DNA of 32,000 bases from Synechococcus elongatus PCC 6301 (lineage in GTDB: Bacteria > Cyanobacteriota > Cyanobacteriia > Synechococcales > Synechococcaceae): assembly GCF_000010065.1 (NCBI RefSeq), contig NC_006576.1, positions 420,001 to 452,000 of the forward strand. Direction: 5' to 3'. Each line of letters starts with the position of its first letter. The stretch's first letter is position 1. Both the position numbers and the translations under genes were made by a program. The notes below the pieces were generated by a model, which had not been told where the DNA came from, did not search any database, and worked only from the letters and a program-made list of their open reading frames with translations. This document shows positions 43 through 14,724 of this stretch, piece by piece.

Positions 43-1368
43 TTACAATTGCTGCGGTGGACTGAAGACCAGTTGCAATTGCAACGACCACTCGCGTCGC
101 GATCGCCGTTGGAGTTGAATCTCGCGGATAAATTCCCGAAAGAAAAAGCGCCGCTCCACTTCCGAAAGATCCTGCCAGAACTGGGGAATAGCAACGGCTT
201 GCACCAATTCCGGCAGATTGACGGGCGAGAGTTGGGCTTGGCGATCGCGAAGTTGCACCAGTTCCGTTTGAAGCTGAAGCCGTCGGATAGCAGCTGTCTC
301 CGCGTCGAGGATGCCCCGCGCTTCTAAATCTGGCAGTTCAACGCTCAGAATCTGCTGCAGTTCCGCTTGGCGACTAGCGATCGCAGACTTAGCCGGATTT
401 TGCTCTGGTTGACCCAGTGCTGAAACCGCGATCGGGAGTTCCTGGCAAATGGTTTGAATCACCGTTTGCAGGCACATATCGTAGGCGATCGCGCTGCAAC
501 GCGGGCTTTGTTGACAGGCAGCAGGCGATCGCAGATAAAGGTATTCACGGTCGCTGCGGTGGGGTTTGGTGCTGCCAACAATTAGATGCGCCTGACAGGT
601 TTGGCATTGCACCAGTCCGGCCAAGCAACGGGGTGCACTGGCAGTTTTGGGGGGGAGGCGTCGATTGCGCCGCAAAATGCGATCGATCTGCGCGGCTTCT
701 TCTCGCGATACCAAGGCGGGATGGGTGTCGGCCACGATCGCTCCACTGCCGTAGACCAAATCGCCGCGATAGGCCGGATGACTCAGCCAGCGGCGCACGG
801 TCATGACTGCGATCGCCCGCTGATGTTTTTGCGAGACATAGCGGGCAGCCCCTCGCAGGGAGCCATAAATCAGGAAATGCGCGACCCCATCTCGCACCAG
901 TGCAGCTGCAGCCCGATCGATCGCATAGCGATCTTTGCCGCGACGGTAGCCAAAGGGCGCAGGGCCGGGAGGTGGCAAGGCTTGCAATCGATTTCGGGCA
1001 TGACCAGCTTTTAACCGATCGCGTTGCTGCGATCGCTGTACTTCGGCCCAAAGTGGCAGTAAATCCAGTCCAGCAGCGGAATCGAGGGGGAGAGGTTCGT
1101 CTAAACCTACGATTTGCACTTGCACGGACTGTTGCTGACAGTGCTTCAGAACGGGCAACAAGGCATCAAGGCGATCGCCCAGATCGTGGAGTTGCCGAAG
1201 CCAAAGGCGATCGCCCGGCTGCAATTCCGTCAATAGCTGCTGTAACTGAGGGCGATCGGGGGCGGGCAATCGGTCACAAAAAACCCGATCGGGGGACTCT
1301 GGCCAAGTCTCGAGGGCAACCAGCGTTTCCCAAGTCGGATTCAAAGCGTAGTAGGCGACGATCGCCAC
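43..1368 (-). CDS. Large serine recombinase family protein with a degenerate resolvase-like N-domain, a Recombinase domain, a zinc ribbon and a coiled coil; probably catalytically inactive
   Basis: 441-aa ORF with a GTG start. The Recombinase-domain signature is PAPFGYRRGKDRYAIDRAAAALVRDGVAHFL...WLSHPAYRGDLVYG. A Cys-rich ribbon (LVQCQTCQAHL...CQQSPRC) and a C-terminal coiled coil follow. The N-terminus reads AIVAYYALNPTWE where YxRVSTxxQ is expected. Confidence 0.8.
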   Translation of the reverse strand: MAIVAYYALNPTWETLVALETWPESPDRVFCDRLPAPDRPQLQQLLTELQPGDRLWLRQLHDLGDRLDALLPVLKHCQQQSVQVQIVGLDEPLPLDSAAGLDLLPLWAEVQRSQQRDRLKAGHARNRLQALPPPGPAPFGYRRGKDRYAIDRAAAALVRDGVAHFLIYGSLRGAARYVSQKHQRAIAVMTVRRWLSHPAYRGDLVYGSGAIVADTHPALVSREEAAQIDRILRRNRRLPPKTASAPRCLAGLVQCQTCQAHLIVGSTKPHRSDREYLYLRSPAACQQSPRCSAIAYDMCLQTVIQTICQELPIAVSALGQPEQNPAKSAIASRQAELQQILSVELPDLEARGILDAETAAIRRLQLQTELVQLRDRQAQLSPVNLPELVQAVAIPQFWQDLSEVERRFFFREFIREIQLQRRSRREWSLQLQLVFSPPQQL

Positions 1369-1504
1369 GACCGTCCGTCAGTAGGCTACTTTTTCAGCCA
1401 GCTAAGCATAGCCCGCGGTTTTTTGCCCACCGACCCGATCGGATGCTCAGCTTCTAGGTAGCGAATGACGGTCATTTCAAGCCAAGGCGGATCCGAGCAG
1501 CCAA

Positions 1505-1589
1505 CTAAACTCTGATTTAGTTAGAGACTCAACTGACATCGATCGCCATCAACCGGATCGCACCCTTGAGGATCACTGCGATCGCAGCA
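1505..1589. repeat. Left copy of an 85-bp imperfect direct repeat (partner at 4246-4329)
   Basis: In a hand alignment 74 of 85 columns are identical (10 substitutions, 1 indel). The last 34 columns differ at one position. The copy contains a hairpin, AACTAAA-ctctga-TTTAGTT. Confidence 0.85.
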
Positions 1590-1655: not shown

Positions 1656-1797
1656 TTGTGGTCACAATTAGGCGTGCAATTGGATGGCGATCGCCCGCCC
1701 GCTCACAACTTGTTATTAACGCGGCAGTGGTTATTTATTGTTCCGCTTAGTCGTGAAAGCCACCTGCCGATTAACGTCAATGCCTTGGGTTTCGCGG
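1656..1797 (+). pseudogene. Fragment resembling the C-terminal domain of ATP adenylyltransferase / Ap4A phosphorylase
   Basis: The translation PPAHNLLLTRQWLFIVPLSRESHLPINVNALGFA matches the family signature as I remember it (NLLLTrxWmLlVPRS...isvNaLGFAG). The similarity stops abruptly at 1797, at a GGATCGC junction. Only about 45 residues of a protein of about 290 aa are present. Confidence 0.45.
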
Positions 1798-1839
1798 ATC
1801 GCACCCGAAAGGCCAGGGGTTCGAATCCCCTTAGCTCCA
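1798..1839 (+). pseudogene. tRNA 3'-half remnant (T arm, 3' acceptor strand and discriminator A; no 5' half)
   Basis: AGGGG-TTCGAAT-CCCCT at 1815-1831 is followed by TAGCTCC and A. The matching 5' acceptor strand GGAGCTA is not present upstream. Confidence 0.6.
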
Positions 1840-1896: not shown

Positions 1897-1955
1897 GTTC
1901 AACAGCTCACAGATTAAGTTACCAAGAACTGTTATTGGTTGGGATGCTGTTAGGT
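1897..1955 (-). other. attC-like 59-bp recombination site downstream of the nuclease gene
   Basis: On the minus strand ACCTAAC (an R'' box, RYYYAAC) starts 8 nt after the stop codon. 45 nt of imperfect inverted repeat follow (AGC/GCT, TCCCA/TGTGA, ACCAA/TTGGT), and then GTTGAAC (an R' box, GTTRRRY). Confidence 0.4.
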
Positions 1956-1963
1956 TGCTGACG

Positions 1964-3388
1964 CTATTTCATTTTACTTGCAGAGGGAAAAACTCTTCCA
2001 TCAACAACAAAAATCTCTGGTGCCCTTTTACCGGCAGCCACTTGATCCTTCCTAAATTTGATTAGCTCCTCTAAAGCTTTAATGGACTCAGTGGTTCTAA
2101 TAATTAGAAAAATACTGTATTGCGTCCGCTCAGCAGCACCATATATGGGAAGTTGTTTCTCATAACCTGCTCTAATATTATTTGATGTGTATTTTATCTC
2201 AACATTCACTCGCGCATTGTAGCCACTAGAAATTTTAAAATCGACAGGACCCCGTCCAGCGTTAGGTTCTCTATTTAAATCTAGATTATGAGCACCGCAG
2301 TAGGCAACAGCTATACCAAAGAAAAGCAATTGTGCAAAACGCTCATTCCGCAGATTTTTTGACTCATCCCAAAAATGCACAGATAACCCATTAGCCTCAA
2401 CCAAAACTTTGAAATGATCACATATCTTGAGAATTAACTGAAGAATATTTTCAGGGGTTACTTTATCTACACCCAACAAGAGTGGATAAAGATTAGCATA
2501 CTCCCTTGCGATATCAAGCCAAATGAGCTGTCCTGATGGATCCTTGTCAAAATCGTATTTTTCAGCAGAGTTTTTCTTGTATTGTTCTACTAAATCTTTC
2601 AGTAATTCGGGATGATGAAGGAGAATATATTTCAACTCACATTTTGTGATTTTTCTTCTCTTCCCTGATGCATCTTTCCAAGAATCTCCGATGATTTCAT
2701 TTACACGATTACGCAAGTCTTCGTTATGAGCACAAACACGATCAATATCATCCCAACCATTTGCGACAGGAAGGTCATTGAGAATCTCGCAAGGGATCAA
2801 TACTGTAGGACGATTGCTACCAGCAATGGCTGGAAGTAAGAATTCCTTTCCACGTGCTTTTGCTTGACAGGTATTTAAACTAAGATTTTTAGCAACTCGT
2901 TCTGAGTAAGTTGGCAAGTCCAGAAGGATTATATGAATTGTCATATCGCTGATTCGATCAGCACCGATATTTTCTTCAATAAGACCAACTAGCTCAAAAA
3001 TAACTGGATCGGTTATGCCTGCTTGTATGATTTCCCAAGCAGTGTTGGTTAGATTTAGGGCAATTCCTGAACCGATACCACTACCTGATATACCCTCTGT
3101 AGAATAGCCTAAAGATACAAATGGTAGTTCTGGAAATATCAATTTTTTGTGCGCTGCACGAAAGAAGCTATCGCCAGAATGTTTGGTTGCCTCTAAAAGA
3201 TGAATGATTTTCGTGAAATGAGTTTTGAAACTTAGATATGAGTTCTCAAGCTCTGGAATTTTGGTGCTTCTAAGAAGATGGGGATCAACATAGAACTTGG
3301 AGTCAAGATCTATAAATCCATTAAATACTCCCTCTCTTCTCAGATCTTCTTCAGTAACCCCAAAGATCTCGCTTATTCTTCTAGGCAT
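1964..3388 (-). CDS. Orphan 474-aa protein with an unknown N-terminal domain and a C-terminal PD-(D/E)XK (RecB/Cas4-like) nuclease domain
   Basis: This is a long ORF in AT-rich DNA with no HIP1 sites. The C-terminus carries E349 (NERFAQ), GPVD383F, VE397IK399 and Q412LPIY416, which is the ordered E...D...ExK...QxxxY nuclease signature. I do not recognise the N-terminal 340 aa. Confidence 0.85.
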   Translation of the reverse strand: MPRRISEIFGVTEEDLRREGVFNGFIDLDSKFYVDPHLLRSTKIPELENSYLSFKTHFTKIIHLLEATKHSGDSFFRAAHKKLIFPELPFVSLGYSTEGISGSGIGSGIALNLTNTAWEIIQAGITDPVIFELVGLIEENIGADRISDMTIHIILLDLPTYSERVAKNLSLNTCQAKARGKEFLLPAIAGSNRPTVLIPCEILNDLPVANGWDDIDRVCAHNEDLRNRVNEIIGDSWKDASGKRRKITKCELKYILLHHPELLKDLVEQYKKNSAEKYDFDKDPSGQLIWLDIAREYANLYPLLLGVDKVTPENILQLILKICDHFKVLVEANGLSVHFWDESKNLRNERFAQLLFFGIAVAYCGAHNLDLNREPNAGRGPVDFKISSGYNARVNVEIKYTSNNIRAGYEKQLPIYGAAERTQYSIFLIIRTTESIKALEELIKFRKDQVAAGKRAPEIFVVDGRVFPSASKMK

Positions 3389-3515
3389 AAAACTACTGTA
3401 AATACTGATACAAGCCTAGCGTCAGGATCGATGACAGGAGCAAATTCTCTAAAAGCTTGATTTGTCAGAAATGACGAAAGCTATGGGAGTATCGTCCTAT
3501 CCCAAAATTAAAGTA

Positions 3516-3585
3516 ACCTAACGTTGAAATTCGGCGGACGGCAAAAGCATAGCTTTTGAAGGTCCGCTAGAATGACGTGTTAGCA
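3516..3585 (-). other. attC-like 70-bp imperfect palindrome whose R' box GTTAGGT marks the 5' boundary of the nuclease cassette
   Basis: The minus strand reads TGCTAAC-acgtcattcta-GCGGACC-tt-CAAAAGC-tat-GCTTTTG-cc-GTCCGCC-gaatttcaac-GTTAGGT. The stems are 3534-3539/3562-3567 and 3542-3548/3552-3558. The R'' box is non-canonical in its first two positions. Confidence 0.35.
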
Positions 3586-3609
3586 CATTGCACATGCATG
3601 CCAAGGAAT

Positions 3610-3640
3610 TGGTGCGGAGAGGGGGAATCGACCCCCCCTA
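3610..3640 (-). pseudogene. tRNA 3'-end remnant with encoded CCA (T arm and acceptor strand), of unclear parent tRNA
   Basis: The minus strand reads GGGGG-GTCGATT-CCCCC-TCTCCGC-A-CCA. The 3' end TCCGCACCA resembles tRNA-Leu. The two native tRNA genes in this window do not encode CCA. Confidence 0.55.
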
Positions 3641-4074
3641 CGTTCACTCTTGGCAAGCAGCACAAATTCATGAACGCTAATCTCTCGTTTGGGTTGGAAT
3701 TTTCTCTTTCCAGAGACTCCGCAGGAACGCAATTCCGCACCAAACACATGCCATTACCGAAGTAAAGAAAGCGATTGAGTTTTTCATAAACACCTCCAGA
3801 GCGATCGCAATAAAGCCAAAGATAGAAGCGAAGACTTCCAACCCAAACGAGACTACGACGTTCACTTCAATGTGTACTTGTACCTCCAAGCCTGTTTTGT
3901 CGGCACCGACTAGGTCAGCACTAACTATGTATTAAGCGTCAGATCCGTTAGATAACTACCTTGATGTCTGATTTTATGCACCGGATCTACGGGATAACGC
4001 CCGAATCTTAAGGAATTAATTATCATTATCGCCGGATAACACCGTGGTTTTGGGATGTTATCCAGCATTTACCT

Positions 4075-4250
4075 ATGTCATCACCACAACCACCGTGCTT
4101 GCTTGATCAGGTGAGAGAAGCAATTCGTCCTAAACATTTCAGCCTCAAGACCGATAAGTCGTATCTTTACTACATTCGAGATTTCATCCCATCCCACAAC
4201 AAGCGCCATCCTAGAAAGATGGGGAGCGACGAGATTCGAGCTTACCTAAC
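4075..4250 (+). pseudogene. Truncated integron-integrase-like (IntI/XerD-type) tyrosine recombinase; only the N-terminal SAM-like domain remains
   Basis: LLDQVREAIRPKHFSLKTDKSYLYYIRDFIPSHNKRHPRKMGSDEIRAYL parallels the IntI1 N-terminus as I remember it ([49 protein letters not shown]). Similarity ends at about aa 58, exactly where the right direct repeat begins. The catalytic domain is absent. Confidence 0.6.
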
Positions 4251-4329
4251 TCTGATTCAGTTAGCGATTCAACTGACATCAATTGCTAACAACTCGATCG
4301 CACGCTTGAGGATCACTGCGATCGCAGCA
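4246..4329. repeat. Right copy of the 85-bp imperfect direct repeat; overlaps the MFS stop codon and its last 5 codons
   Basis: See the alignment with 1505-1589. It contains a hairpin, CTAACT-ctgattc-AGTTAG. Confidence 0.85.
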
Positions 4330-8013: not shown

Positions 8014-8356
8014 TTAGGCCATTTCACAACGCAAAATCCGGCTACGAAGCAGCTAACTGTTTAGAGCCAGAGAACTTTCAAACCGAATTTTTAGAGCAGA
8101 CTGGTAGGCGATCGCTATTCCTTTGTGACGTCCAAACGATGTCACTTCTCTCATGTGGTTTAATTTTCACCAAGTTCAAACACCGCAGTTTATGTGTATT
8201 TCTGTTTATTGGCTGCCATTGCTGTTTCCGGCTGTCATACTAGCGATGCTAGGAAAAGCCCCCCTATAAAAACGGTATCTTTGTGGACTCCTGAGTGGTC
8301 ACAGGAAGCTTTAGACTATCGTGGCCAGTCGCTGCTCAATTTGCAGAACACCGACG

Positions 8357-11300
8357 ATGGAACAATCTTCACGCCAGTTCTTCGAGCAAATTAGCCGCGA
8401 AGATTGGGAACAAACGCCGGAAAGTGTTCAGCAACTCGTTAGAGCACTACTCGCTGAAAGCGACTTGGTCACCGAGGAAAGTGAACAAGCAAGTACTGGC
8501 CGTCTTGCCATCGATCAATACTTTCGAGAGAGTCTACGCTACCAACAGGTTGTCGAAGCCCAGACAGACTTGATTCTGCGATCGCGTTCAGATACGACGG
8601 TTGTATTTGCCAACAAACCTCTTTGTCAAGTTCTTGGTTGGCAAGATGGAGATATCAGCGGACAAACTTGGGGAAACTTGGTTCCTCCAAATGATCTCTC
8701 TGAACTTCATGAAAAAATTGCAGGATTAAGCCTAGAAAATCCAACTTTTGAAAGCTTAAACCGTAACTACGGAGCTGATCAGAGAATAAAATGGATTCAA
8801 TGGGTTAATCAAGGCATCTTTAATGACAGAGGAGAGCTGATTGAGATCCAGTCTGTTGGCCGAGATGTCACAACTCTAATTGAGCAAATCACAAGGGAAA
8901 AAACATTAAATTATGTCTTTGAAGCAATCCGAAATTCCCTGGATTTAGAGGTTATTTTTGCAACTGCAACTAAAGAATTAGCGAAAACATTAAATGGTTT
9001 AGATTGTTATATTGTCCAGTATTTGGAAGAGCAAAGAATCTGGACTCATGTTGCTGAGTTTCAGCATGACGAAAATCAAGAATCAAGACTCGGCATTGAG
9101 ATTCAGGACTTAGACAACCCTTTCGCAGAACAGTTAAAAAAATTCCAAGTTGTTAGAGTTGAAAATACTCAAAATATTAATGACAAGATCAATAGAGAGC
9201 TAGCTAAGTCTACACCTGGAGCGTGGCTACTGGTTCCCTTGATTGTTGAAGAAAAATTATGGGGGAGCTTCACAATTGTTTCAAATCAGAAACCTTTTAT
9301 ATGGAGTGATGGTTATGTTGATCTTGCCAGAAGTATTTCTAGACAATTAGAGATTGCTATTTATCAAGCTGATCTCTATCAAAAAATTCAACAGGAACTA
9401 AGCGATCGCAGCAAAGCAGAGCTGGCTCTACAAGAAAGCCAGACCCGATTTCAAAGAATCGCTGACAATTTGCCAGGAATTATTTATGGCTATAAATTGA
9501 GGCAGGATGGCACAGATCAATTCACCTATATTAGTTCTGGTTTTAGAGAGGTTTATGGCATTGATCCAGAAACAGCTTTAGAAAACAGTAATGTTGTTTG
9601 GGGAATGATTCATCCAGAAGATATTGAGTACTTAAAGACTTCAATCATCAAGTCTCAGCAAACACTTAAAACTTGGAAGGTTGAATATCGAATCATTACT
9701 AAGAATGGTGAATTAAAATGGATGCAGGGACGAGCTCGTCCGACTCGCCAAGAAAACGGTGAGACTTTTTGGGATGGACTCATTATTGATATTAGCGATC
9801 GCAAAAAAATAGAAGCTGAATTACAAACAAGTGAGGAGCGCTATCGGCTACTAGCTGAAAATATGAATGATTTAGTCTGTTTGCATCAAGCAGATGGAAC
9901 TTACCTTTATGTCAGCCCTTCTGCTGAAGCCCTACTGGGATTCAGTAGTGAGGAAATGGTCGGCCAGAACCCCTATGATTTTTTCCACCCAGAAGACTGC
10001 GATCGCATCCGAGATGAAGCTCACCAAGCCGTGTTAATGGGGGCCGAACTACCGATTGTTTATCGAATGCGAAAAAAACTAGGGGGATATATTTGGTTTG
10101 AGACTCTCACTAAACCGATCATGGATGATCAAGGTGTTGTGATTGGACTACAAACAACCTCTCGGGATGTAACTCAGCGTATTGAAATTCAAAATCAGCT
10201 TCAATATGATGCTTGTCACGATAGTCTAACGGGGTTAGCTAACCGTAATTTACTAATTGAAAGACTTGAACTATCGCTTAAAAGATCAAAAAGATTACAA
10301 AACTATAAGTACGCAGTCTTATTCCTTGATCTCGATCGCTTCAAAGTGATTAACGATAGCTTGGGGCATATCACAGGCGATCAGCTTTTGGTCAGCATCG
10401 CCCAAAAGCTACAGTCAATAATTCGCTCTCATGACTTGGCTGCTCGCTTAGGAGGTGATGAATTTGTAGTTCTAGTCGAGGATATTCAAACCTTTGATGA
10501 GCCAATCAAAGTTGCCGAGCGAATTCTTGCAGCTATTCAAGTTCCTTTAGAACTCGAAGAACGGTCAATTTACACCTCAACAAGTATTGGCATTGTCTTT
10601 GGTAGCCATGAGTATGAGAGTGCAACACAGCTGCTGAGAGATGCGGATACTGCGATGTATCGGGCAAAATCTAGGGGTAGAGCTCGCTACGAAGTTTTTG
10701 ATAGCGCAATGCATTCTCAAGCTTTAGCGAGGTTACATCTCGAAAATGACTTGCGGCAAGCGATCGCTCGACAAGAATTTGTCCTCTACTACCAGCCAAT
10801 TATCCAATTGCAGACTGGTAAGATTACAGGCTTCGAGGCTTTGATTCGTTGGCAGCATCCAACTGAGGGCATCAAGCTGCCGATCGACCTAATCCCTATT
10901 GCGGAAGAGACGGGTTTAATCACCAGTATTGACTATTGGGTACTAAATCAAGCCTGTCGGCAGCTCTCTGAATGGCAAGCCAGCTATTCACAGGCAGCAG
11001 ATTTAAGTATGAGCGTGAATCTATCGGCTCAAAACCTTCAGCATGACCACCTCATGGATGAAATTCAATCGGTTTTGCAAGCTACAAAGATTAAGCCTGG
11101 CTCATTAACTTTAGAAATTACGGAAAGTATGCTGATTGAAAATACCGATCAGACAATTCAACTACTTGCCGCCATTAATGAGCAAGGCATAGAAATTAGC
11201 ATTGATGACTTTGGAACCGGATATTCCTCGTTGAGTTATCTGCACAAACTACCTGTCAACAACCTAAAGGTTGATGGCTCGTTTGTTCGTAAAATTACGA

Positions 11301-11500
11301 CTGAATCAACTAATTACCAGATCGTTAATACTATCATTGCCCTAAATAATCAACTAGGACTAAAAGCGATCGCAGAGGGAATTGAAACCCATGAGCAACT
11401 CGACCTACTTAGTCAGTTAGGCTACCAGTATGGCCAAGGATATCTCTTTGCTAGACCCCTTAATGCCAAAGATGTTGAGCAGCTTTTCTTGAGCAATTAA
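8357..11500 (+). CDS. Multidomain c-di-GMP signalling protein: PAS, GAF, two PAS, GGDEF and EAL domains
   Basis: It has an intact GGDEF motif (RLGGDEFVV) and EAL motifs (FEALIRW, DDFGTGYSSLSYL). PAS/PAC repeats are present (WKVEYRIITKNGELKWMQ; IVYRMRKKLGGYIWFE). The ORF opens at 8321 (GTG), and the first ATG is at 8357. Confidence 0.9.
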   Translation: MEQSSRQFFEQISREDWEQTPESVQQLVRALLAESDLVTEESEQASTGRLAIDQYFRESLRYQQVVEAQTDLILRSRSDTTVVFANKPLCQVLGWQDGDISGQTWGNLVPPNDLSELHEKIAGLSLENPTFESLNRNYGADQRIKWIQWVNQGIFNDRGELIEIQSVGRDVTTLIEQITREKTLNYVFEAIRNSLDLEVIFATATKELAKTLNGLDCYIVQYLEEQRIWTHVAEFQHDENQESRLGIEIQDLDNPFAEQLKKFQVVRVENTQNINDKINRELAKSTPGAWLLVPLIVEEKLWGSFTIVSNQKPFIWSDGYVDLARSISRQLEIAIYQADLYQKIQQELSDRSKAELALQESQTRFQRIADNLPGIIYGYKLRQDGTDQFTYISSGFREVYGIDPETALENSNVVWGMIHPEDIEYLKTSIIKSQQTLKTWKVEYRIITKNGELKWMQGRARPTRQENGETFWDGLIIDISDRKKIEAELQTSEERYRLLAENMNDLVCLHQADGTYLYVSPSAEALLGFSSEEMVGQNPYDFFHPEDCDRIRDEAHQAVLMGAELPIVYRMRKKLGGYIWFETLTKPIMDDQGVVIGLQTTSRDVTQRIEIQNQLQYDACHDSLTGLANRNLLIERLELSLKRSKRLQNYKYAVLFLDLDRFKVINDSLGHITGDQLLVSIAQKLQSIIRSHDLAARLGGDEFVVLVEDIQTFDEPIKVAERILAAIQVPLELEERSIYTSTSIGIVFGSHEYESATQLLRDADTAMYRAKSRGRARYEVFDSAMHSQALARLHLENDLRQAIARQEFVLYYQPIIQLQTGKITGFEALIRWQHPTEGIKLPIDLIPIAEETGLITSIDYWVLNQACRQLSEWQASYSQAADLSMSVNLSAQNLQHDHLMDEIQSVLQATKIKPGSLTLEITESMLIENTDQTIQLLAAINEQGIEISIDDFGTGYSSLSYLHKLPVNNLKVDGSFVRKITTESTNYQIVNTIIALNNQLGLKAIAEGIETHEQLDLLSQLGYQYGQGYLFARPLNAKDVEQLFLSN

Positions 11501-11538: not shown

Positions 11539-14500
11539 TTAGTTTTTACTAGTTGCCTCGCAAATACTGCGATAGCTGCAATATTGACAGCAGAGTCCTG
11601 GCTGAGGATCAAAGTCACCTTGGGCTAACTGGACGGCAGCTCGTTCAGCTTGATCAGGAATGAATTCAATTTCAATCCAATCCAGTTGATTGTGGCGGAG
11701 CCAAGCGATCGCGGCTTGTGGGCGATTGAGAGCCGCAGCATAAGCCCAAAGCTGCAACTGATAATTCTCTGGTTGAGGTTGCTGATCGGTTTTGAAATCC
11801 AGGACCCAATCCGCTCCGACTAGATCGGCCCGCCCCTTGAGCACTAGGCCGCTACTGAGTTCCAAGTGCAGAGTCACTTCACGCTGTTGAGCCTGCTCAC
11901 GAACAGCGCTGTAAACGGGTTCCGTCGCAAAGCAGCTAGCTAACTGCAGTGCCTGCGGAATCAGGTCTTGATCTTCAGCAGCACAGTAAGGCTTGAGTGC
12001 TTCTGGCTGACGTAAATCGAGTTCAAGGGCACGATGGACTAAGAGCCCTAGTTGTGGCGGCCGATCGCTCGTCCCTGCGCCTTCCCCATCGATCGCGCCG
12101 GGATGCCCCTGGGTATAGCGGAAGTGAAAAAGGGCTGGACAACGGAAATAGTCCGCAAATGCTGAAACAGAGAGCTCACTGTACTGGGGAGCGATCGCGG
12201 CTGTGGACTGCCAGAACAGGGGTGCATCCGCAGTGGGTAACGTCGCCGTAACCGCAATCTCCGTTCCTGAGTTGGGATCAAGCGGTTGGATCGCAGCTTG
12301 TTCTAGTCCGGGGGCGAGTAGATCCAGAGGCGATCGCGCCTCTGCAGATTTGGGACTGGTGAGCAGGAGCAAGTCACGCGCCCGCGTAAAGCCAACGTAG
12401 AGTAACCGCCTGGTTTCGGCGTCTTCGGCTTGCTGTTTGCGGTACTTGAAAAACTGATAGGCAGCGGCCTGTTCTTTGACGTAGGGTTGCCGCAGAGCGA
12501 CTCCGAGCTCAGTATCAAACAGAACTGTTTCAGCTTGCGATCTCGGTTTAGCGGTGAGATCGGGAATGATCACGACCGGCCATTCCGAACCCTTTGATCC
12601 GTGTAAGGTCATCAGGGTAACGGCATTACCCGCTTTTAGGACGGGACGCGGCAGGACGACTTCGGCCTGTTGTAATTGCTTCCAATAGCGCAGCAACAAC
12701 TCCAGATCATGCGCTTGAGGTTGTTCACGCAGAAAGGTCAGCAGGGCTTGCCAATCGGCCAGCAGTCGTTGAGCTTGGGGTAAGCTAGCCAGCACAGCAC
12801 TGTAGCCCGTGGCGCGATCGAACTGCTGCACCAGCCGCAGAGGTGATTCGAAAAAGCGCGATCGCAGCAGGCCTTCCAAAATTTTGATGGCGGCCGCAAA
12901 CGCTGGATCTGGCCGTTCCTGACGATGACTCCACCAGCCTTTGCCTTGCTGGGCTCGCTGATAGAGCTGGGCATCGCTGAGGCCAAAGGCCGGACTGCGC
13001 AACAGGGTCGCTAGGGCGAGGTCGTTGCTGGGATAGACCAAAAACTCCAGCAGCGCTTGCAAGTCATAACCGACAGGGGTTTCGAGGAGGCTACCGCCCC
13101 CATTGACCAGCACGGGAATCCCAGCCTGATTGAGAACTTCGCCGTAGACCGTTTCCAAGGGTGCGCGCCGCCGGCAGAGAATGGCAATGTCGCCGTAGGC
13201 GATCGGGCGATGTTGGTTGCTCGGCTTGTCCCAAACCAGTAGTGGTTGCTGGATCCAAGTCTGGATCTGCTGAGCGATCGCGGTGGCTTCTTGGATGCGG
13301 GCTTGCTCGAGAGAATCTTTCTCTTCCGGCTCAATCACCAGTTGCTGAATGGGTGGCAGCGGATGGGGCGGCTGGCGATCGCTGCGGAGAGGTTGATAGG
13401 GATCAAGCACCGGCTCAAAGACTTGATTGATGGTTTCGAGCAGCGTTTGGTGGGTGCGGAAGCTCTGGCTCAGCGTGACGATGTGCCCTTGGTGCTGCTG
13501 GATTTGCTGTTGCCAATTGCGAAACACTTGAGTGGCCGCGCCACGGAAGCCATAGATCGACTGCTTCTCATCACCAACCAAAGTCAGGATCAGGTGTTGT
13601 GGATCCCAGAGGGCTTGCAGAATCTGGCTTTGCGTGGGGTTGGTGTCTTGGAATTCATCGACAAAGCAATAGCGCCAGCGTTGTTGATAGTGCGATCGCA
13701 CGGCTTCGCTTTCGAGTGCTCGCACCGCACCACGCTCTAGGTCATTGAAGTCGAGGCAGCGATCCTGTCGCTTGCGAGCATCAATGCTCTTAAGAACGGT
13801 TTCAAACGCTTCGTAGATCCGCGATCGCTGGTCTCGATTCCAATCATCTGCCTCGTTAGGACGCAGACTCAGCAATGATTCCTCATCCCTGAGGCGATCG
13901 CGGAGAACTTTGCACTGGGTGCGCAACAGCTTTGCCGTATCGGCACTGCCCCAGTTTTTCGCTGAGCCAGCCTGAGTCAGTTTCAGCTTAATGAATTCGT
14001 CATAGGTTGCTTGCCAATTTGAGTTGGCCGGATCGAAGAGCGTATCTGACCAAGCGAGAATTTGCTGAATTTGGTCGCTGAGAGCATCCGCTTCACGCCA
14101 ACTTGCTCCGCTGAGATCCTCGATCGCAGCTTGCCAATCAGAGGACTGCTGGATTTGTTGCAGGCGATCGCGCTGAGCTTGAGCGAGTACCTCACGCCAT
14201 TGTTCAGATTCGACTGCGAGTAGCGCTTGACTGCGAACCGGATCATCCAGCAGCGTTTCGAGCAGCGGTCGCCACTCGCTGTAATCCATGACATCGAAGC
14301 AGCTTGGATCCAGTTCCTGCATCGCTGCCGTCAGCACGGTCTGCTGCCAGAGCTTGCCTGCAAGATCATCGAGGATCGTGAAATCCGCCGGTTGTCCCGC
14401 TGCGGCGGGATGTTCGCGACAAATCCGGGCACAGAGGCTATGAAAGGTACTGATTTGAGCAGCTTCAACTTCAGCCAACCAATCAGAGCGATCGGGCCAT

Positions 14501-14724
14501 TTGTTCCCAACGGCTTTACGGATCCGCGATCGCAATTCAGCGGCTGCCTTCTCGGTAAAGGTCAGCACGACAATTTCCAGCGGCGAAACCGACTCGGACG
14601 CTTGCTGTAGATGCCAGAGGTAGCGCTGACTGAGCAATTCTGTTTTGCCGGTGCCAGCACCCGCCGTAACCGCTACCGAACCTGCTGCTTGAACAGCTTG
14701 GCGTTGTTCCTCAGTCAGCTTCAT
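11539..14724 (-). CDS. AddA-like UvrD/Rep-family helicase with a C-terminal PD-(D/E)XK nuclease domain
   Basis: It has a Walker A motif (GAGTGKTELL) and UvrD motifs (VDEFQDTNP, GDEKQSIYGFRGA, LSQSFRT). The C-terminus has ...RADLV...VLDFKTD...QLQLWAY plus Cys residues at FRCP and CCQYCSYRSIC. Confidence 0.85.
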   Translation of the reverse strand: MKLTEEQRQAVQAAGSVAVTAGAGTGKTELLSQRYLWHLQQASESVSPLEIVVLTFTEKAAAELRSRIRKAVGNKWPDRSDWLAEVEAAQISTFHSLCARICREHPAAAGQPADFTILDDLAGKLWQQTVLTAAMQELDPSCFDVMDYSEWRPLLETLLDDPVRSQALLAVESEQWREVLAQAQRDRLQQIQQSSDWQAAIEDLSGASWREADALSDQIQQILAWSDTLFDPANSNWQATYDEFIKLKLTQAGSAKNWGSADTAKLLRTQCKVLRDRLRDEESLLSLRPNEADDWNRDQRSRIYEAFETVLKSIDARKRQDRCLDFNDLERGAVRALESEAVRSHYQQRWRYCFVDEFQDTNPTQSQILQALWDPQHLILTLVGDEKQSIYGFRGAATQVFRNWQQQIQQHQGHIVTLSQSFRTHQTLLETINQVFEPVLDPYQPLRSDRQPPHPLPPIQQLVIEPEEKDSLEQARIQEATAIAQQIQTWIQQPLLVWDKPSNQHRPIAYGDIAILCRRRAPLETVYGEVLNQAGIPVLVNGGGSLLETPVGYDLQALLEFLVYPSNDLALATLLRSPAFGLSDAQLYQRAQQGKGWWSHRQERPDPAFAAAIKILEGLLRSRFFESPLRLVQQFDRATGYSAVLASLPQAQRLLADWQALLTFLREQPQAHDLELLLRYWKQLQQAEVVLPRPVLKAGNAVTLMTLHGSKGSEWPVVIIPDLTAKPRSQAETVLFDTELGVALRQPYVKEQAAAYQFFKYRKQQAEDAETRRLLYVGFTRARDLLLLTSPKSAEARSPLDLLAPGLEQAAIQPLDPNSGTEIAVTATLPTADAPLFWQSTAAIAPQYSELSVSAFADYFRCPALFHFRYTQGHPGAIDGEGAGTSDRPPQLGLLVHRALELDLRQPEALKPYCAAEDQDLIPQALQLASCFATEPVYSAVREQAQQREVTLHLELSSGLVLKGRADLVGADWVLDFKTDQQPQPENYQLQLWAYAAALNRPQAAIAWLRHNQLDWIEIEFIPDQAERAAVQLAQGDFDPQPGLCCQYCSYRSICEATSKN

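What the first reader, a model, noticed from the sequence alone, without database searches (positions are those of the whole stretch)
1964..3388. Orphan 474-aa protein: unrecognised 340-aa N-terminal domain fused to a RecB/Cas4-type PD-(D/E)XK nuclease; candidate single-gene defence or addiction module
The C-terminal 130 aa carry the full ordered nuclease signature: E349, PVD383, E397-I-K399 and Q412xxxY416. The N-terminal two thirds match nothing I recognise (FNGFIDLDSKFYVDPHLL..., a Gly-rich GISGSGIGSGIA segment and a basic KRRKITK patch). The gene is visibly AT-rich and has no HIP1 sites in a genome saturated with them, so it is probably a recent acquisition. It sits among recombinase remnants and tRNA scars. 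A variable sensor-like N-domain joined to a C-terminal PD-(D/E)XK effector is the architecture of single-gene anti-phage systems such as Shedu. Calling it a defence gene is my inference and is not shown by the sequence.
Basis: partly seen in the sequence, partly recalled or inferred. Interest (0 to 1): 0.75.

Follow-up and report, generated by a model that had tools for sequence, protein, structure and literature searches.

The report
Integron-borne candidate defence nuclease gene
This intact 474-aa gene joins an N-terminal region with no match among solved structures to a restriction-enzyme-like DNA-cutting domain; it sits as a cassette in a decayed cyanobacterial integron, and its relatives occupy known anti-phage hotspots, so it is a good but untested candidate immune gene.

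Summary
The ORF (1964-3388, minus strand, 474 aa) is real, intact and under strong purifying selection (dN/dS 0.07-0.15). The proposed nuclease residues E349, D383, E397, K399, Q412 and Y416 are at least 97% conserved. In a confident AlphaFold model they sit at the canonical PD-(D/E)XK positions.

The protein is not an orphan. It belongs to a large family (3,253 clusters at 50% identity; Pfam DUF8370+DUF8371; phrog_30194) spread sporadically across many phyla.

The first 345 residues have no match among solved structures, by sequence or by Foldseek.

New finding: the gene is an integron cassette. It begins at the GTTAGGT core of an upstream attC, lies divergent from a truncated intI, and has orthologs followed by attC sites in arrays, one next to an intact IntI.

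Other family members sit inside Type I R-M operons, in the int-psu defence hotspot of an E. coli P4-like satellite, and at the end of a mobilisable element. No partner gene is conserved.

The gene has lower GC than its flanks in 70 of 87 loci.

It is not Shedu. It resembles RecB/Cas4 only at motif level, and it is only a distant relative of the untested PADLOC candidate PDC-M36A. Defence is well supported by context but unproven. Addiction is not supported.

The parts
1964..3388 (-). Intact 474-aa ORF, a member of the DUF8370+DUF8371 family.
   Evidence: ORF call. Homologs and precomputed Pfam. dN/dS 0.07-0.15 against ten cyanobacterial orthologs. AlphaFold model with pLDDT 82.4 and pTM 0.80.
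2774..3388 (-). N-terminal domain, aa 1-205 (the DUF8370 part). It is mostly alpha-helical and has a Gly-rich loop (aa 94-106). D29, E87, D144 and D148 are at least 97% conserved.
   Evidence: Conservation. The PADLOC PDC-M36A hit covers aa 24-210. No fold match in the PDB.
2354..2773 (-). Middle helical region, aa 206-345. N222, R226 and K249 are at least 90% conserved across 131 representatives, and N230 is invariant in the 87-sequence alignment. Model confidence is low for aa 208-241.
1964..2353 (-). C-terminal PD-(D/E)XK nuclease domain, aa 346-474 plus the stop codon. E349 lies on a helix, D383 just before the second core strand, E397-x-K399 in the third strand, and Q412/Y416 on the following helix.
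   Evidence: Secondary structure of the model. Conservation. The weak fold hits are almost all restriction-endonuclease-like proteins.
3389..3522 (-). 134-nt 5' leader of the cassette. It travels with the ORF and begins at the core site GTTAGGT (window 3522 to 3516 on the minus strand).
   Evidence: blastn homology to L004 and L100-L103 is confined to window 1948-3523. Junction sequences.
3513..3588 (-). attC site of the preceding cassette (attC-1). Its R' core forms the 5' boundary of the target cassette.
   Evidence: DNA fold of -15.8 kcal/mol, z=-4.8. It aligns with the attC family of L101-L103. Covariance model scores are 61 bits (R1) and 45.7 bits (R2). It was a training sequence for both models, so these scores are not independent.
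1897..1955 (-). Possible short or degenerate attC of the target cassette. The R'' box ACCTAAC begins 8 nt after the stop codon, and an R'-like GTTGAAC lies at the far end.
   Evidence: The sequence GCAACCTAACA equals the first 11 consensus positions of model R2. The site as a whole scores only 4.2 bits (E=9) and its fold has z=-1.6. It is therefore not confirmed.
4075..4250 (+). 5' fragment (about 58 codons) of an integron integrase gene (intI'), divergent from the cassettes.
   Evidence: Pfam Phage_int_SAM_4. 48% identity to the N-terminus of the intact IntI of L101 (E=1e-18). Its only PDB hit is IntI4, 2a3v (E=1.7e-7). Homology ends near codon 60.
3589..4030 (-). Preceding cassette or attI-proximal segment. 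It holds a small hydrophobic 70-aa ORF (3677-3889, minus strand).
   Evidence: ORF list. Its position lies between intI' and attC-1. I did not study it further.
1499..1589 (+). Left copy of a 91-nt direct repeat that brackets the integron remnant.
   Evidence: the repeat finder family D1: 85% identity, 2,740 bp apart. Only two copies occur in the window.
4239..4329 (+). Right copy of the 91-nt direct repeat. It starts where intI homology ends and runs into the 3' end of the MFS transporter gene.
1785..1832 (+). tmRNA/tRNA-like 3'-end fragment.
   Evidence: Rfam RF00023, 17.3 bits, E=7.9e-4, below the gathering score. ARAGORN does not call it.

Best explanation
The gene encodes a stand-alone, horizontally mobile DNA nuclease. 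In this genome it is carried as a gene cassette in a decayed chromosomal integron (truncated intI, attC site upstream, degenerate attC downstream).

The protein has a C-terminal Mg2+-dependent PD-(D/E)XK endonuclease domain with catalytic residues E349, D383, E397 and K399 and a QxxxY helix. It follows a 345-residue, mostly helical N-terminal region that matches no solved structure and carries its own conserved acidic pocket (D29, E87, D144, D148) and a glycine loop.

The most likely function is single-protein defence against phage or other invading DNA. In this model the N-terminal region holds the nuclease inactive, or directs it, until an infection cue is met. The basic nuclease domain then cleaves DNA.

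Shown: the gene is intact and under selection; the motifs and topology fit the nuclease fold; the gene is in a cassette/integron context; relatives recur in defence hotspots.

Inferred: nuclease activity, the defence role, gating by the N-domain, and the nature of the trigger.
For: - Gene and selection.
- Nuclease motifs are conserved to at least 97% across 131 representatives and map onto the alpha-beta-beta-beta-alpha-beta core.
- Best fold hits, though weak: Ecl18kI, Nt.BspD6I, SfsA, Kpn2I and Cdn1 in the PDB. In BFVD: 'Restriction endonuclease', 'PD-(D/E)XK nuclease superfamily' and 'Mrr domain' proteins, with Foldseek probabilities of 0.97-1.00 for three hits, two of them named as restriction endonucleases.
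- Integron, window side: homology block 1948-3523 with core-site ends; attC consensus structure with 7 of 19 pairs showing compensatory changes.
- Integron, orthologs: attC model hits all lie on the gene's strand. They begin 7-9 nt after the ortholog's stop codon in L010 (E=6e-9), L012 (E=1.4e-6 with R2) and L100-L103.
- Integron integrase: intact IntI in L101 (2a3v, E=1.4e-93, against XerA at 4.8e-28); intI fragment in the window.
- No conserved partner gene in 93 loci.
- Defence contexts:
  - L059: hsdM-RhuM-hsdS-TARGET-x-x-hsdR.
  - L049: hsdR, an unscanned 452-aa ORF, hsdM, TARGET, AAA_21 ATPase.
  - L053: TARGET-hsdR (for these three).
  - E. coli MB06172: a P4-like satellite with ssrA-int-TARGET...delta-psu. 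This is the int-psu hotspot of PMC9122126.
  - E. coli 4012: cargo at the end of a mobilisable element.
- The commonest neighbour families are ResIII, Eco57I, N6_Mtase, Methylase_S, integrases and resolvases.
- All 87 family members tested hit PADLOC PDC-M36A (best E=4.6e-18).
- At least a third of unknown cassettes from mobile integrons confer phage resistance (10.1101/2024.07.02.601719).
- The gene has lower GC than its flanks in 70 of 87 loci.
Against: - No experiment exists for this family.
- Fold matches to solved nucleases are below significance (best E=0.045 in the PDB, 0.006 in BFVD).
- No Pfam nuclease model recognises the domain.
- The window's own downstream attC is not confirmed, and intI is truncated, so this copy may no longer be mobile or expressed from an integron promoter. 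No convincing promoter was found.
- Many neighbours in other genomes are ordinary metabolic genes.
- I estimated enrichment for defence genes only from counts, without a matched background.
- The gene is absent from the 50,697 deposited phage genomes, and only 10 IMG/VR viral contigs carry it.
- The role of the N-domain is pure inference.
Confidence: 0.55

Rival explanations
1. It is a solitary restriction endonuclease of the Type IV or modification-dependent kind. The N-terminal region would directly recognise a DNA feature of invaders, such as a modified base or a specific sequence, and the C-terminal domain would cut. There would be no cognate methylase and no gating by an infection signal.
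For: - The best fold hits are Type II/IIS restriction enzymes and Mrr-like domains.
- Two family members weakly hit Pfam RE_XcyI (E=2.5e-4).
- No methyltransferase is consistently adjacent.
- The gene is frequently next to R-M genes.
Against: - The N-terminal region is on average acidic, with few conserved basic residues. It resembles no known DNA-modification reader or any solved fold.
- The conserved acidic cluster looks more like a metal or ligand site than a DNA-reading surface.
Confidence: 0.17
2. It is a selfish or inter-element competition nuclease. It would serve the mobile elements that carry it, for example by excluding rival plasmids or satellites, by homing, or by helping insertion, and would not protect the host from phage.
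For: - The gene is always on mobile or variable DNA: integron cassettes, a P4-like satellite, a mobilisable element, and plasmids (13 plasmid hits).
- A discrete 1.58-kb unit with fixed ends occurs in different contexts.
- GC is persistently foreign.
Against: - The fixed ends are explained by integron core sites rather than by self-mobilisation.
- Embedding inside host Type I R-M operons fits defence better.
- No terminal repeats or target duplications specific to the gene were seen outside the attC boxes.
Confidence: 0.15
3. It is the toxin of an addiction (toxin-antitoxin) module that stabilises the cassette array or island.
For: - Toxin-antitoxin genes are common neighbours: PIN, HicB, DUF433/DUF5615, BrnT and PemK.
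- From general knowledge, chromosomal integron arrays often carry TA cassettes.
Against: - No conserved adjacent small ORF or partner exists in 93 loci.
- The transferred unit holds only this ORF plus a 134-nt leader.
- At 474 aa with a large conserved N-terminal region, it is unlike typical TA toxins.
Confidence: 0.05
4. It is a housekeeping DNA repair or recombination nuclease, or a decaying relic without function.
For: - Some copies sit among core metabolic genes.
- The integron here is decayed (truncated intI, degenerate attC).
Against: - Distribution is sporadic (14 of 5,426 E. coli genomes; scattered phyla).
- Contexts are variable.
- GC is foreign.
- dN/dS of 0.07-0.15 and an intact full-length ORF with all conserved residues argue against decay.
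Confidence: 0.05

Closest known systems
PADLOC phage-defence candidate PDC-M36, component A (Payne et al. 2024, bioRxiv 10.1101/2024.01.29.577857)
   Same: - All 87 family members tested match the PDC-M36A model (best E=4.6e-18; this protein E=4e-6), over about the first 190 residues.
- The model length (457) is similar to the protein length.
- Both are associated with genes embedded in defence loci.
   Different: - PDC-M36 is a three-gene cassette (FAM_01399>>FAM_00303>>FAM_00303). This family has no conserved partner.
- The match does not extend into the middle region or the nuclease domain.
- I found no record that PDC-M36 has been tested.
Shedu (SduA, DUF4263)
   Same: One protein, with an N-terminal domain of unclear function joined to a C-terminal PD-(D/E)XK nuclease. 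It works alone and is found in defence islands (the Shedu properties are from general knowledge).
   Different: - No hit to DUF4263 or PADLOC Shedu models for this protein or among the families listed for its 87 homologs.
- The N-terminal region is unrelated.
- This nuclease has a QxxxY helix motif.
- The oligomeric state and trigger are unknown.
RecB/AddAB/Cas4-type PD-(D/E)XK nucleases
   Same: The motifs occur in the same order: E on a helix, then D, then ExK, then QxxxY on the next helix.
   Different: - PDDEXK_1 does not detect it, although that model detects AddA/AddB in the same window.
- PADLOC reports no Cas4-model hit for the protein or among the seven families that its 87 homologs match.
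- hhalign against those AddA/AddB domains is not significant.
- No helicase partner is present.
- No four-cysteine Fe-S cluster is present; only C323 and C364 are conserved.
Bacteriophage resistance integron cassettes (BRiCs; Escudero lab, bioRxiv 10.1101/2024.07.02.601719)
   Same: A single-ORF integron cassette of unknown function that is plausibly protective. Integrons act as mobile defence islands.
   Different: - BRiCs were defined experimentally in class 1/2 mobile integrons of clinical Gram-negative bacteria.
- This one is an untested cassette in a decayed chromosomal integron of a cyanobacterium.
- None of the matched passages I read in that paper describes a similar protein.
Cargo of the P4-like satellite int-psu defence hotspot (Rousset et al. 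2022, PMC9122126; follow-up PMC13586616)
   Same: An E. coli family member (WP_112844575.1, 36% identical over the full length) sits next to the integrase in that hotspot.
   Different: - It is not among the accessions I could find in their tables.
- It does not match the newly named systems Crouga, Bandua, Aernus, Toga, Reve or Hailong.

Membership tests
PD-(D/E)XK nuclease superfamily | Conserved catalytic D ... (D/E)xK, with an upstream acidic residue. | tested here: met
   E349, D383, E397 and K399 are at least 97% conserved in 131 representatives and invariant or nearly so in 87 homologs.
PD-(D/E)XK nuclease superfamily | An alpha-beta-beta-beta-alpha-beta core with the motif residues at the canonical positions. 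| tested here: met
   The model elements are H349-365, E370-373, E384-387, E393-400, H405-420 and E424-431. E349 is on the helix, D383 lies just before strand 2, and ExK is in strand 3.
PD-(D/E)XK nuclease superfamily | Significant structural similarity to solved members. | tested here: inconclusive
PD-(D/E)XK nuclease superfamily | Metal-dependent phosphodiester cleavage. | not testable with these tools
   This needs biochemistry.
RecB/Cas4 family | Recognised by family profiles (PDDEXK_1; PADLOC Cas4 models). | tested here: not met
   No hit at E up to 1 for this protein or up to 5 for 87 members. PDDEXK_1 does find AddA/AddB in this window. PADLOC reports no Cas4-model hit for the protein or among the seven families its 87 homologs match. 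hhalign gives E=0.13-0.6.
RecB/Cas4 family | QxxxY motif on the helix after the ExK strand. | tested here: met
   Q412 and Y416 are at least 97% conserved and lie on helix 405-420.
RecB/Cas4 family | Four conserved cysteines that bind an Fe-S cluster (Cas4/AddB). | tested here: not met
   Only C323 and C364 are conserved.
Shedu (SduA) | DUF4263 nuclease domain or a match to the PADLOC Shedu model. | tested here: not met
   No such hit for the protein. None appears among the 25 Pfam families shown, or the seven PADLOC families found, for its 87 homologs.
PADLOC PDC-M36 | Match to the PDC-M36A model. | tested here: inconclusive
   The match is significant but partial: aa 24-210 against model positions 26-217 of 457. 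All 87 members match.
PADLOC PDC-M36 | Three-gene cassette with two FAM_00303 genes. | tested here: not met
   No neighbour family occurs in more than 6 of 93 loci.
Integron gene cassette | 5' boundary at the G|TTRRRY core of the preceding attC or attI. | tested here: met
   Homology with five other contexts starts at (C)GTTAGGT, which is the R' box of attC-1 at 3513-3588.
Integron gene cassette | Its own attC (R''-L''...L'-R' hairpin with extrahelical bases) directly after the ORF. | tested here: inconclusive
   In the window, the R'' box lies 8 nt after the stop codon, but the site scores only 4.2 bits. In orthologs the feature is met: L010 (47.6-69 bits), L012 (25-43 bits) and L100-L103 (about 99 bits).
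Integron gene cassette | An integron integrase (IntI) adjacent and divergent. | tested here: met
   The window has a 58-codon intI fragment. An intact IntI lies next to the orthologous cassette in L101 (2a3v, E=1.4e-93). The window copy is truncated and so presumably inactive.
Integron gene cassette | The same cassette occurs in different arrays. | tested here: met
   L101/L102, L103 and the window have different neighbours on either side of the same unit, which is 89% identical at DNA level. L103 and L100 diverge immediately after GTTA of R'.
Integron gene cassette | IntI-mediated excision and integration. | not testable with these tools
   This needs a recombination assay.
Type II toxin-antitoxin / addiction module | A conserved adjacent partner gene. 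| tested here: not met
   Clustering of neighbours up to four genes away on each side in 93 loci.
Type II restriction-modification system | A cognate methyltransferase consistently adjacent. | tested here: not met
   Methylase domains appear in only a few of the 277 immediate neighbours. Where I examined them, they belong to Type I or IIG systems with their own nucleases.

The most novel reading that the evidence does not exclude
DUF8370/DUF8371 proteins are a new, widespread family of single-protein immune nucleases. Their 345-residue N-terminal region is a previously unseen fold that acts as the infection sensor or as a second catalytic or ligand-binding module, through its invariant D29/E87/D144/D148 pocket. 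The family spreads between phyla on at least four kinds of vehicle: integron cassettes, R-M operons, phage satellites and mobilisable elements.
Probability: 0.35. Interest if true: 0.72.

Novelty: new variant of a known kind. Interest (0 to 1): 0.56.

Why it matters
If confirmed, this would add a compact, one-gene nuclease system to the catalogue of bacterial immunity, with a sensor or regulatory domain that matches no solved structure. The family is large (thousands of sequence clusters, many phyla) and is named only as two DUFs.

It would also extend the idea that integrons act as defence-gene banks, so far shown in clinical Gram-negative bacteria and Vibrio, to cyanobacterial chromosomal integrons.

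Natural E. coli orthologs exist in a P4-like satellite hotspot and in a mobilisable element, so the hypothesis can be tested directly with standard phage panels.

Tried and rejected
- **Profile searches with no hit.** The local Pfam, NCBIfam and PDB sequence searches found nothing for the protein or for its family profile. The calcineurin-B-like and ApoE hits are spurious.
- **Per-member Pfam scan.** It gave only scattered weak hits (RE_XcyI, PDDEXK_9, VRR_NUC).
- **hhalign against AddA/AddB.** The comparison with this window's nuclease domains was not significant.
- **N-domain fold search.** The N-domain-only search returned only noise.
- **Alternative fusions.** P0262 looks frameshifted, and P0131 is an inactivated variant with a C-terminal extension. 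Neither is a real alternative fusion.
- **Conserved partner gene.** None was found.
- **My own attC pattern scanner.** It was too strict and missed known sites. I replaced it with covariance models.
- **The window's downstream attC.** It could not be confirmed with either model.
- **The 91-nt repeat as a piece of intI.** Rejected: IntI homology stops at about codon 60, and nothing IntI-like lies beside the left copy.
- **Promoter scan.** Nothing convincing was found upstream of the ORF.
- **Literature.** Searches for PF28130, PF28123, DUF8370, DUF8371 and PDC-M36 returned nothing in main text. The E. coli ortholog accession is absent from the Rousset 2022 tables held.
- **A correction.** I first recalled the PDC-M series as untested candidates from Millman et al. 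The source paper shows that PDC systems come from 'guilt by embedding'.
Full report
**1. The observation**

The named residues are correct: E349, P381-V382-D383, E397-I398-K399 and Q412...Y416.

The gene has 38.4% GC (GC3 29.5%), against 54.7% for the rest of the window. The window holds 106 HIP1 octamers, against about 1 expected by chance, and none lies between 1694 and 3801. By my arithmetic about 7 would be expected in that gap.

Against ten cyanobacterial orthologs, dN/dS is 0.07-0.15. The gene is therefore functional and not decaying.

**2. Not an orphan**

- A word-indexed search found at least 817 homolog clusters; only the 8,000 candidates sharing most words were scored.
- An exhaustive profile search found 3,253 representatives at 50% identity, 912 of them with E at or below 1e-30. 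Nearly all are about 470 aa and match over the full length.
- Source databases already tag the family as Pfam PF28123 (DUF8370) plus PF28130 (DUF8371). These models are newer than the local Pfam copy, which explains the empty scan.
- A truncated homolog covering about residues 149-474 carries only PF28130, which places DUF8370 at the N-terminus.
- phrog_30194 matches over the full length with E=1e-99 and has no assigned function.
- RefSeq annotates E. coli members as 'hypothetical protein' or 'DUF8370 family protein'.
- I found no paper that mentions these names.

**3. The protein**

An AlphaFold2 model built on 87 homologs is confident (pLDDT 82.4, pTM 0.80).

*C-terminal domain.* Residues 346-474 form helix 349-365, strands 370-373, 384-387 and 393-400, helix 405-420 and strand 424-431.

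- E349 lies on the first helix and D383 just before the second strand.
- E397-x-K399 lies within the third strand, and Q412/Y416 on the next helix.
- This is the canonical PD-(D/E)XK arrangement. All six residues are at least 97% conserved across 131 representatives down to 32% identity.
- Foldseek gives no significant match. The best hits are nevertheless almost all of this fold:
  - PDB: Ecl18kI, Nt.BspD6I, SfsA, Kpn2I, Cdn1 and XPF/FANCM-like proteins.
  - BFVD: 'Restriction endonuclease', 'PD-(D/E)XK nuclease superfamily' and 'Mrr domain' proteins, with probabilities of 0.97-1.00 for three hits, two of them named as restriction endonucleases.
- I take the nuclease fold as well supported, at about 0.9.

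*The 'RecB/Cas4-type' label is not supported.*

- PDDEXK_1 readily detects AddA and AddB in this same window but not this protein or any of its 87 relatives tested.
- PADLOC reports no Cas4-model hit for the protein or among the seven families that its 87 relatives match.
- hhalign against the AddA/AddB nuclease domains is not significant.
- There is no four-cysteine cluster.

*N-terminal 345 residues.*

- The region is mostly helical, and the model is confident except for aa 94-101 and parts of 208-241.
- It has its own conserved residues. D29, E87, G94, G102, G124, G142, D144 and D148 are at least 97% conserved. N222, R226 and K249 are at least 90% conserved.
- It is mildly acidic on average, while the nuclease domain is basic.
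- An N-region-only model (pLDDT 81.6) finds nothing among solved structures: best E=0.62, probabilities at or below 0.04.
- The one sequence link is to PADLOC's PDC-M36A model over aa 24-210. It is weak for this protein (E=4e-6) but present in all 87 relatives (best E=4.6e-18).
- According to its source paper, PDC systems were nominated because they lie embedded in BREX, DISARM or Type I R-M loci. PDC-M36 is an unannotated three-gene cassette.

**4. What the gene sits in here: a decayed integron**

*A discrete unit.* DNA similarity between the window and five other contexts of close orthologs (L004, L100-L103) is confined to window 1948-3523. That span is the ORF, 16 nt downstream and 134 nt upstream, and the endpoints are nearly the same each time.

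*Core-site ends.* In gene orientation the unit starts at C|GTTAGGT and ends at GCAACCTAACA|. These are the integron core site GTTRRRY and the inverse core site RYYYAAC.

*The upstream attC.* The sequence just upstream (window 3513-3588) folds into an attC-type hairpin (-15.8 kcal/mol, z=-4.8). It aligns with sites that follow successive ORFs in L101-L103.

*Consensus structure.* The consensus has:

- a 5-bp R-box stem;
- 3-nt unpaired spacers;
- an L-box stem with three single-base bulges, all on one arm;
- a variable loop;
- compensatory changes at 7 of 19 pairs.

*Covariance model hits.* A model built from five of these sites found further sites that were not used to build it. Apart from lower-scoring reverse-strand echoes of sites already found, and one weak hit in L066, every site is on the same strand as the gene. 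The new sites include:

- a site beginning 9 nt after the ortholog's stop codon in Acaryochloris L010 (47.6 bits, E=6e-9);
- a site beginning 7 nt after the ortholog's end in Spirirestis L012 (E=0.007, improving to 1.4e-6 with a second model);
- more sites along the L103 array, and a held-out L103 site.

L012 and L016 also have a GTTAAAC or GTTAAGC core about 30 nt before the start codon.

*The integrase.*

- In L101 the orthologous cassette lies in an array next to an intact integrase. Its best solved relative is the integron integrase IntI4 (2a3v, E=1.4e-93, full length), far ahead of XerA at 4.8e-28.
- The window ORF fragment at 4075-4250 is 48% identical to that protein's N-terminus. Its only PDB hit is the same IntI4.
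- It is divergent from the cassettes, as in a canonical integron, but its homology stops near codon 60.

*Caveats.*

- The window's own downstream site (1897-1955) keeps the R'' box and has an R'-like GTTGAAC. It is not recognised by either model (4.2 bits) and folds weakly. I report it only as a possible short or degenerate attC.
- attC-1 was a training sequence for both models, so its scores are not independent evidence.
- L004 appears to have a collapsed attC.
- Four cyanobacterial loci (L001, L003, L011, L015) show no boxes.

*The bracketing repeat.* A 91-nt direct repeat (85% identical, at 1499-1589 and 4239-4329) brackets the whole remnant. Its origin is unexplained.

*The rest of the window.* It is ordinary chromosome: an MFS transporter, an epimerase, MarR, a GGDEF/EAL sensor and AddA/AddB.

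**5. Where relatives sit**

*No conserved partner.* Eighty species-representative genome loci and ten viral contigs were fetched. Clustering of neighbours up to four genes away on each side in 93 loci found no family in more than six loci. The gene works without a fixed partner.

*Commonest neighbour families.* Among 277 immediate neighbours the commonest Pfam families are ResIII (9), Eco57I (6), Phage_integrase (6), N6_Mtase (5), Methylase_S (4), Resolvase (3) and AAA_21 (3). There are single hits to BrxC/D, RhuM and DpnI, and also many metabolic genes.

*Specific cases.*

- In Sulfurovum L059 the order is hsdM-RhuM-hsdS-TARGET-two small ORFs-hsdR, and the target's start overlaps the hsdS stop.
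- In L049 it is hsdR, an unscanned 452-aa ORF, hsdM, TARGET, then an AAA_21/AAA_15 ATPase.
- In L053 it is TARGET-hsdR.
- In L066 an MmeI-type enzyme lies upstream.
- In E. coli MB06172, a member 36% identical over the full length (E=3e-91) lies directly after the integrase of a P4-like satellite at ssrA, with ogr/delta and psu beyond it. Sister satellites carry other cargo in that slot.
  - A 2026 follow-up found 6 of 8 randomly chosen P4 satellites with unknown-function genes at that locus protective, but none matches this protein.
- In E. coli 4012 the gene ends an integrative mobilisable element.

*Rarity and composition.*

- Only 14 of 5,426 complete E. coli genomes match the gene, 13 of them over at least 80% of it.
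- Thirteen plasmids carry relatives; no deposited phage genome does.
- In 70 of 87 loci the gene is at least 3 GC points below its flanks (mean -7.7 points), and only one locus goes the other way. Foreign composition is therefore a family trait.

**6. Interpretation**

The most likely reading (about 0.55) is a stand-alone defence nuclease carried as mobile cargo. In this genome it is fossilised in a decayed integron.

The proposed mechanism, an N-terminal region that gates or targets a C-terminal Mg2+-dependent endonuclease, is inferred from the architecture and by analogy with Shedu-type proteins. It has not been shown. The acidic, non-DNA-binding character of the N-region and its invariant acidic pocket favour a regulatory, ligand-binding or metal-binding role over direct reading of DNA.

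The rivals are:

- a solitary Type IV-like restriction enzyme (0.17);
- a nuclease that serves element-versus-element competition or mobility (0.15);
- an addiction toxin (0.05; there is no partner gene);
- a housekeeping enzyme or a relic (0.05).

**7. Comparison and novelty**

The family fails the membership tests for Shedu, RecB/Cas4, PDC-M36 as a system, toxin-antitoxin modules and Type II R-M systems. It meets the tests for the PD-(D/E)XK superfamily by motif and topology. It meets most of the integron-cassette tests.

It works like known single-protein nuclease defences and like integron-borne resistance cassettes, but it is a separate, uncharacterised family whose N-terminal region has no match among solved structures. 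I therefore rate it a new variant of a known kind.

My interest score is moderate to high because:

- the family is large;
- four independent mobile or defence contexts agree;
- E. coli orthologs make it directly testable.

Against that, candidate defence genes are now found in large numbers, and nothing about the function of this one has been shown.

Noticed in passing
window 1499-1589 and 4239-4329: A 91-nt direct repeat (85% identical, only two copies in the window) brackets the whole integron remnant. The right copy starts where intI homology ends and overlaps the 3' end of the MFS gene. Its origin is unresolved: it could be an att-like duplication or a small repeat element.
   Followed up: partly
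window 4031-4066: A near-perfect palindrome, GGATAACA-N15-TGTTATCC, lies just upstream of the intI' start codon. It could be an attI or operator remnant.
   Followed up: no
window 3677-3889 (minus strand): A small hydrophobic 70-aa ORF lies in the segment between intI' and attC-1. It may be the ORF of the preceding cassette.
   Followed up: no
window 1785-1832: A tmRNA-like 3' fragment (Rfam E=7.9e-4, below the gathering score) lies about 130 nt beyond the 3' end of the gene. In E. coli, a family member sits in a satellite integrated at ssrA. Any connection is speculative.
   Followed up: partly
window 43-1368 (minus strand): A serine-recombinase-like ORF (Resolvase + Recombinase domains). The Resolvase profile matches only from position 48, the start codon is GTG, and the ORF is rich in HIP1 sites. 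It is probably N-terminally degenerate and long resident.
   Followed up: no
window 8321-11500 (plus strand): A 1,059-aa GAF-PAS-GGDEF-EAL signalling protein is also markedly low in GC (0.36-0.44), which suggests a second, older acquisition.
   Followed up: no
window 11539-17308 (minus strand): An AddA/AddB-type helicase-nuclease pair (UvrD + PDDEXK_1, and PDDEXK_1). I used it as an in-window positive control for RecB-family detection.
   Followed up: partly
P0131 (575 aa, metagenomic): A family member in which the catalytic D383 is replaced by M and E397 by A, with a C-terminal extension of about 100 aa. It is probably an inactivated or repurposed copy.
   Followed up: no
L101 2153-7671: An integron with an intact IntI carries an HTH-containing C5 DNA-methyltransferase gene, a 216-aa ORF and a separate small HTH gene between the integrase and the target cassette. 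This may be a restriction-modification module with a controller protein.
   Followed up: no
L104 (E. coli MB06172) 8964-10672: The same P4-like satellite hotspot also carries a DUF3226 + AAA ATPase gene pair beside the family member.
   Followed up: no
L001 5303-5394 (Scytonema HK-05): An attC-like site (50-70 bits) lies directly after a DUF4145 gene, 4.6 kb upstream of the family member. The region is full of toxin-antitoxin genes and also holds SNF2-helicase and DUF1156 genes, which I take to be DISARM-like. Cassette remnants therefore occur there too.
   Followed up: partly
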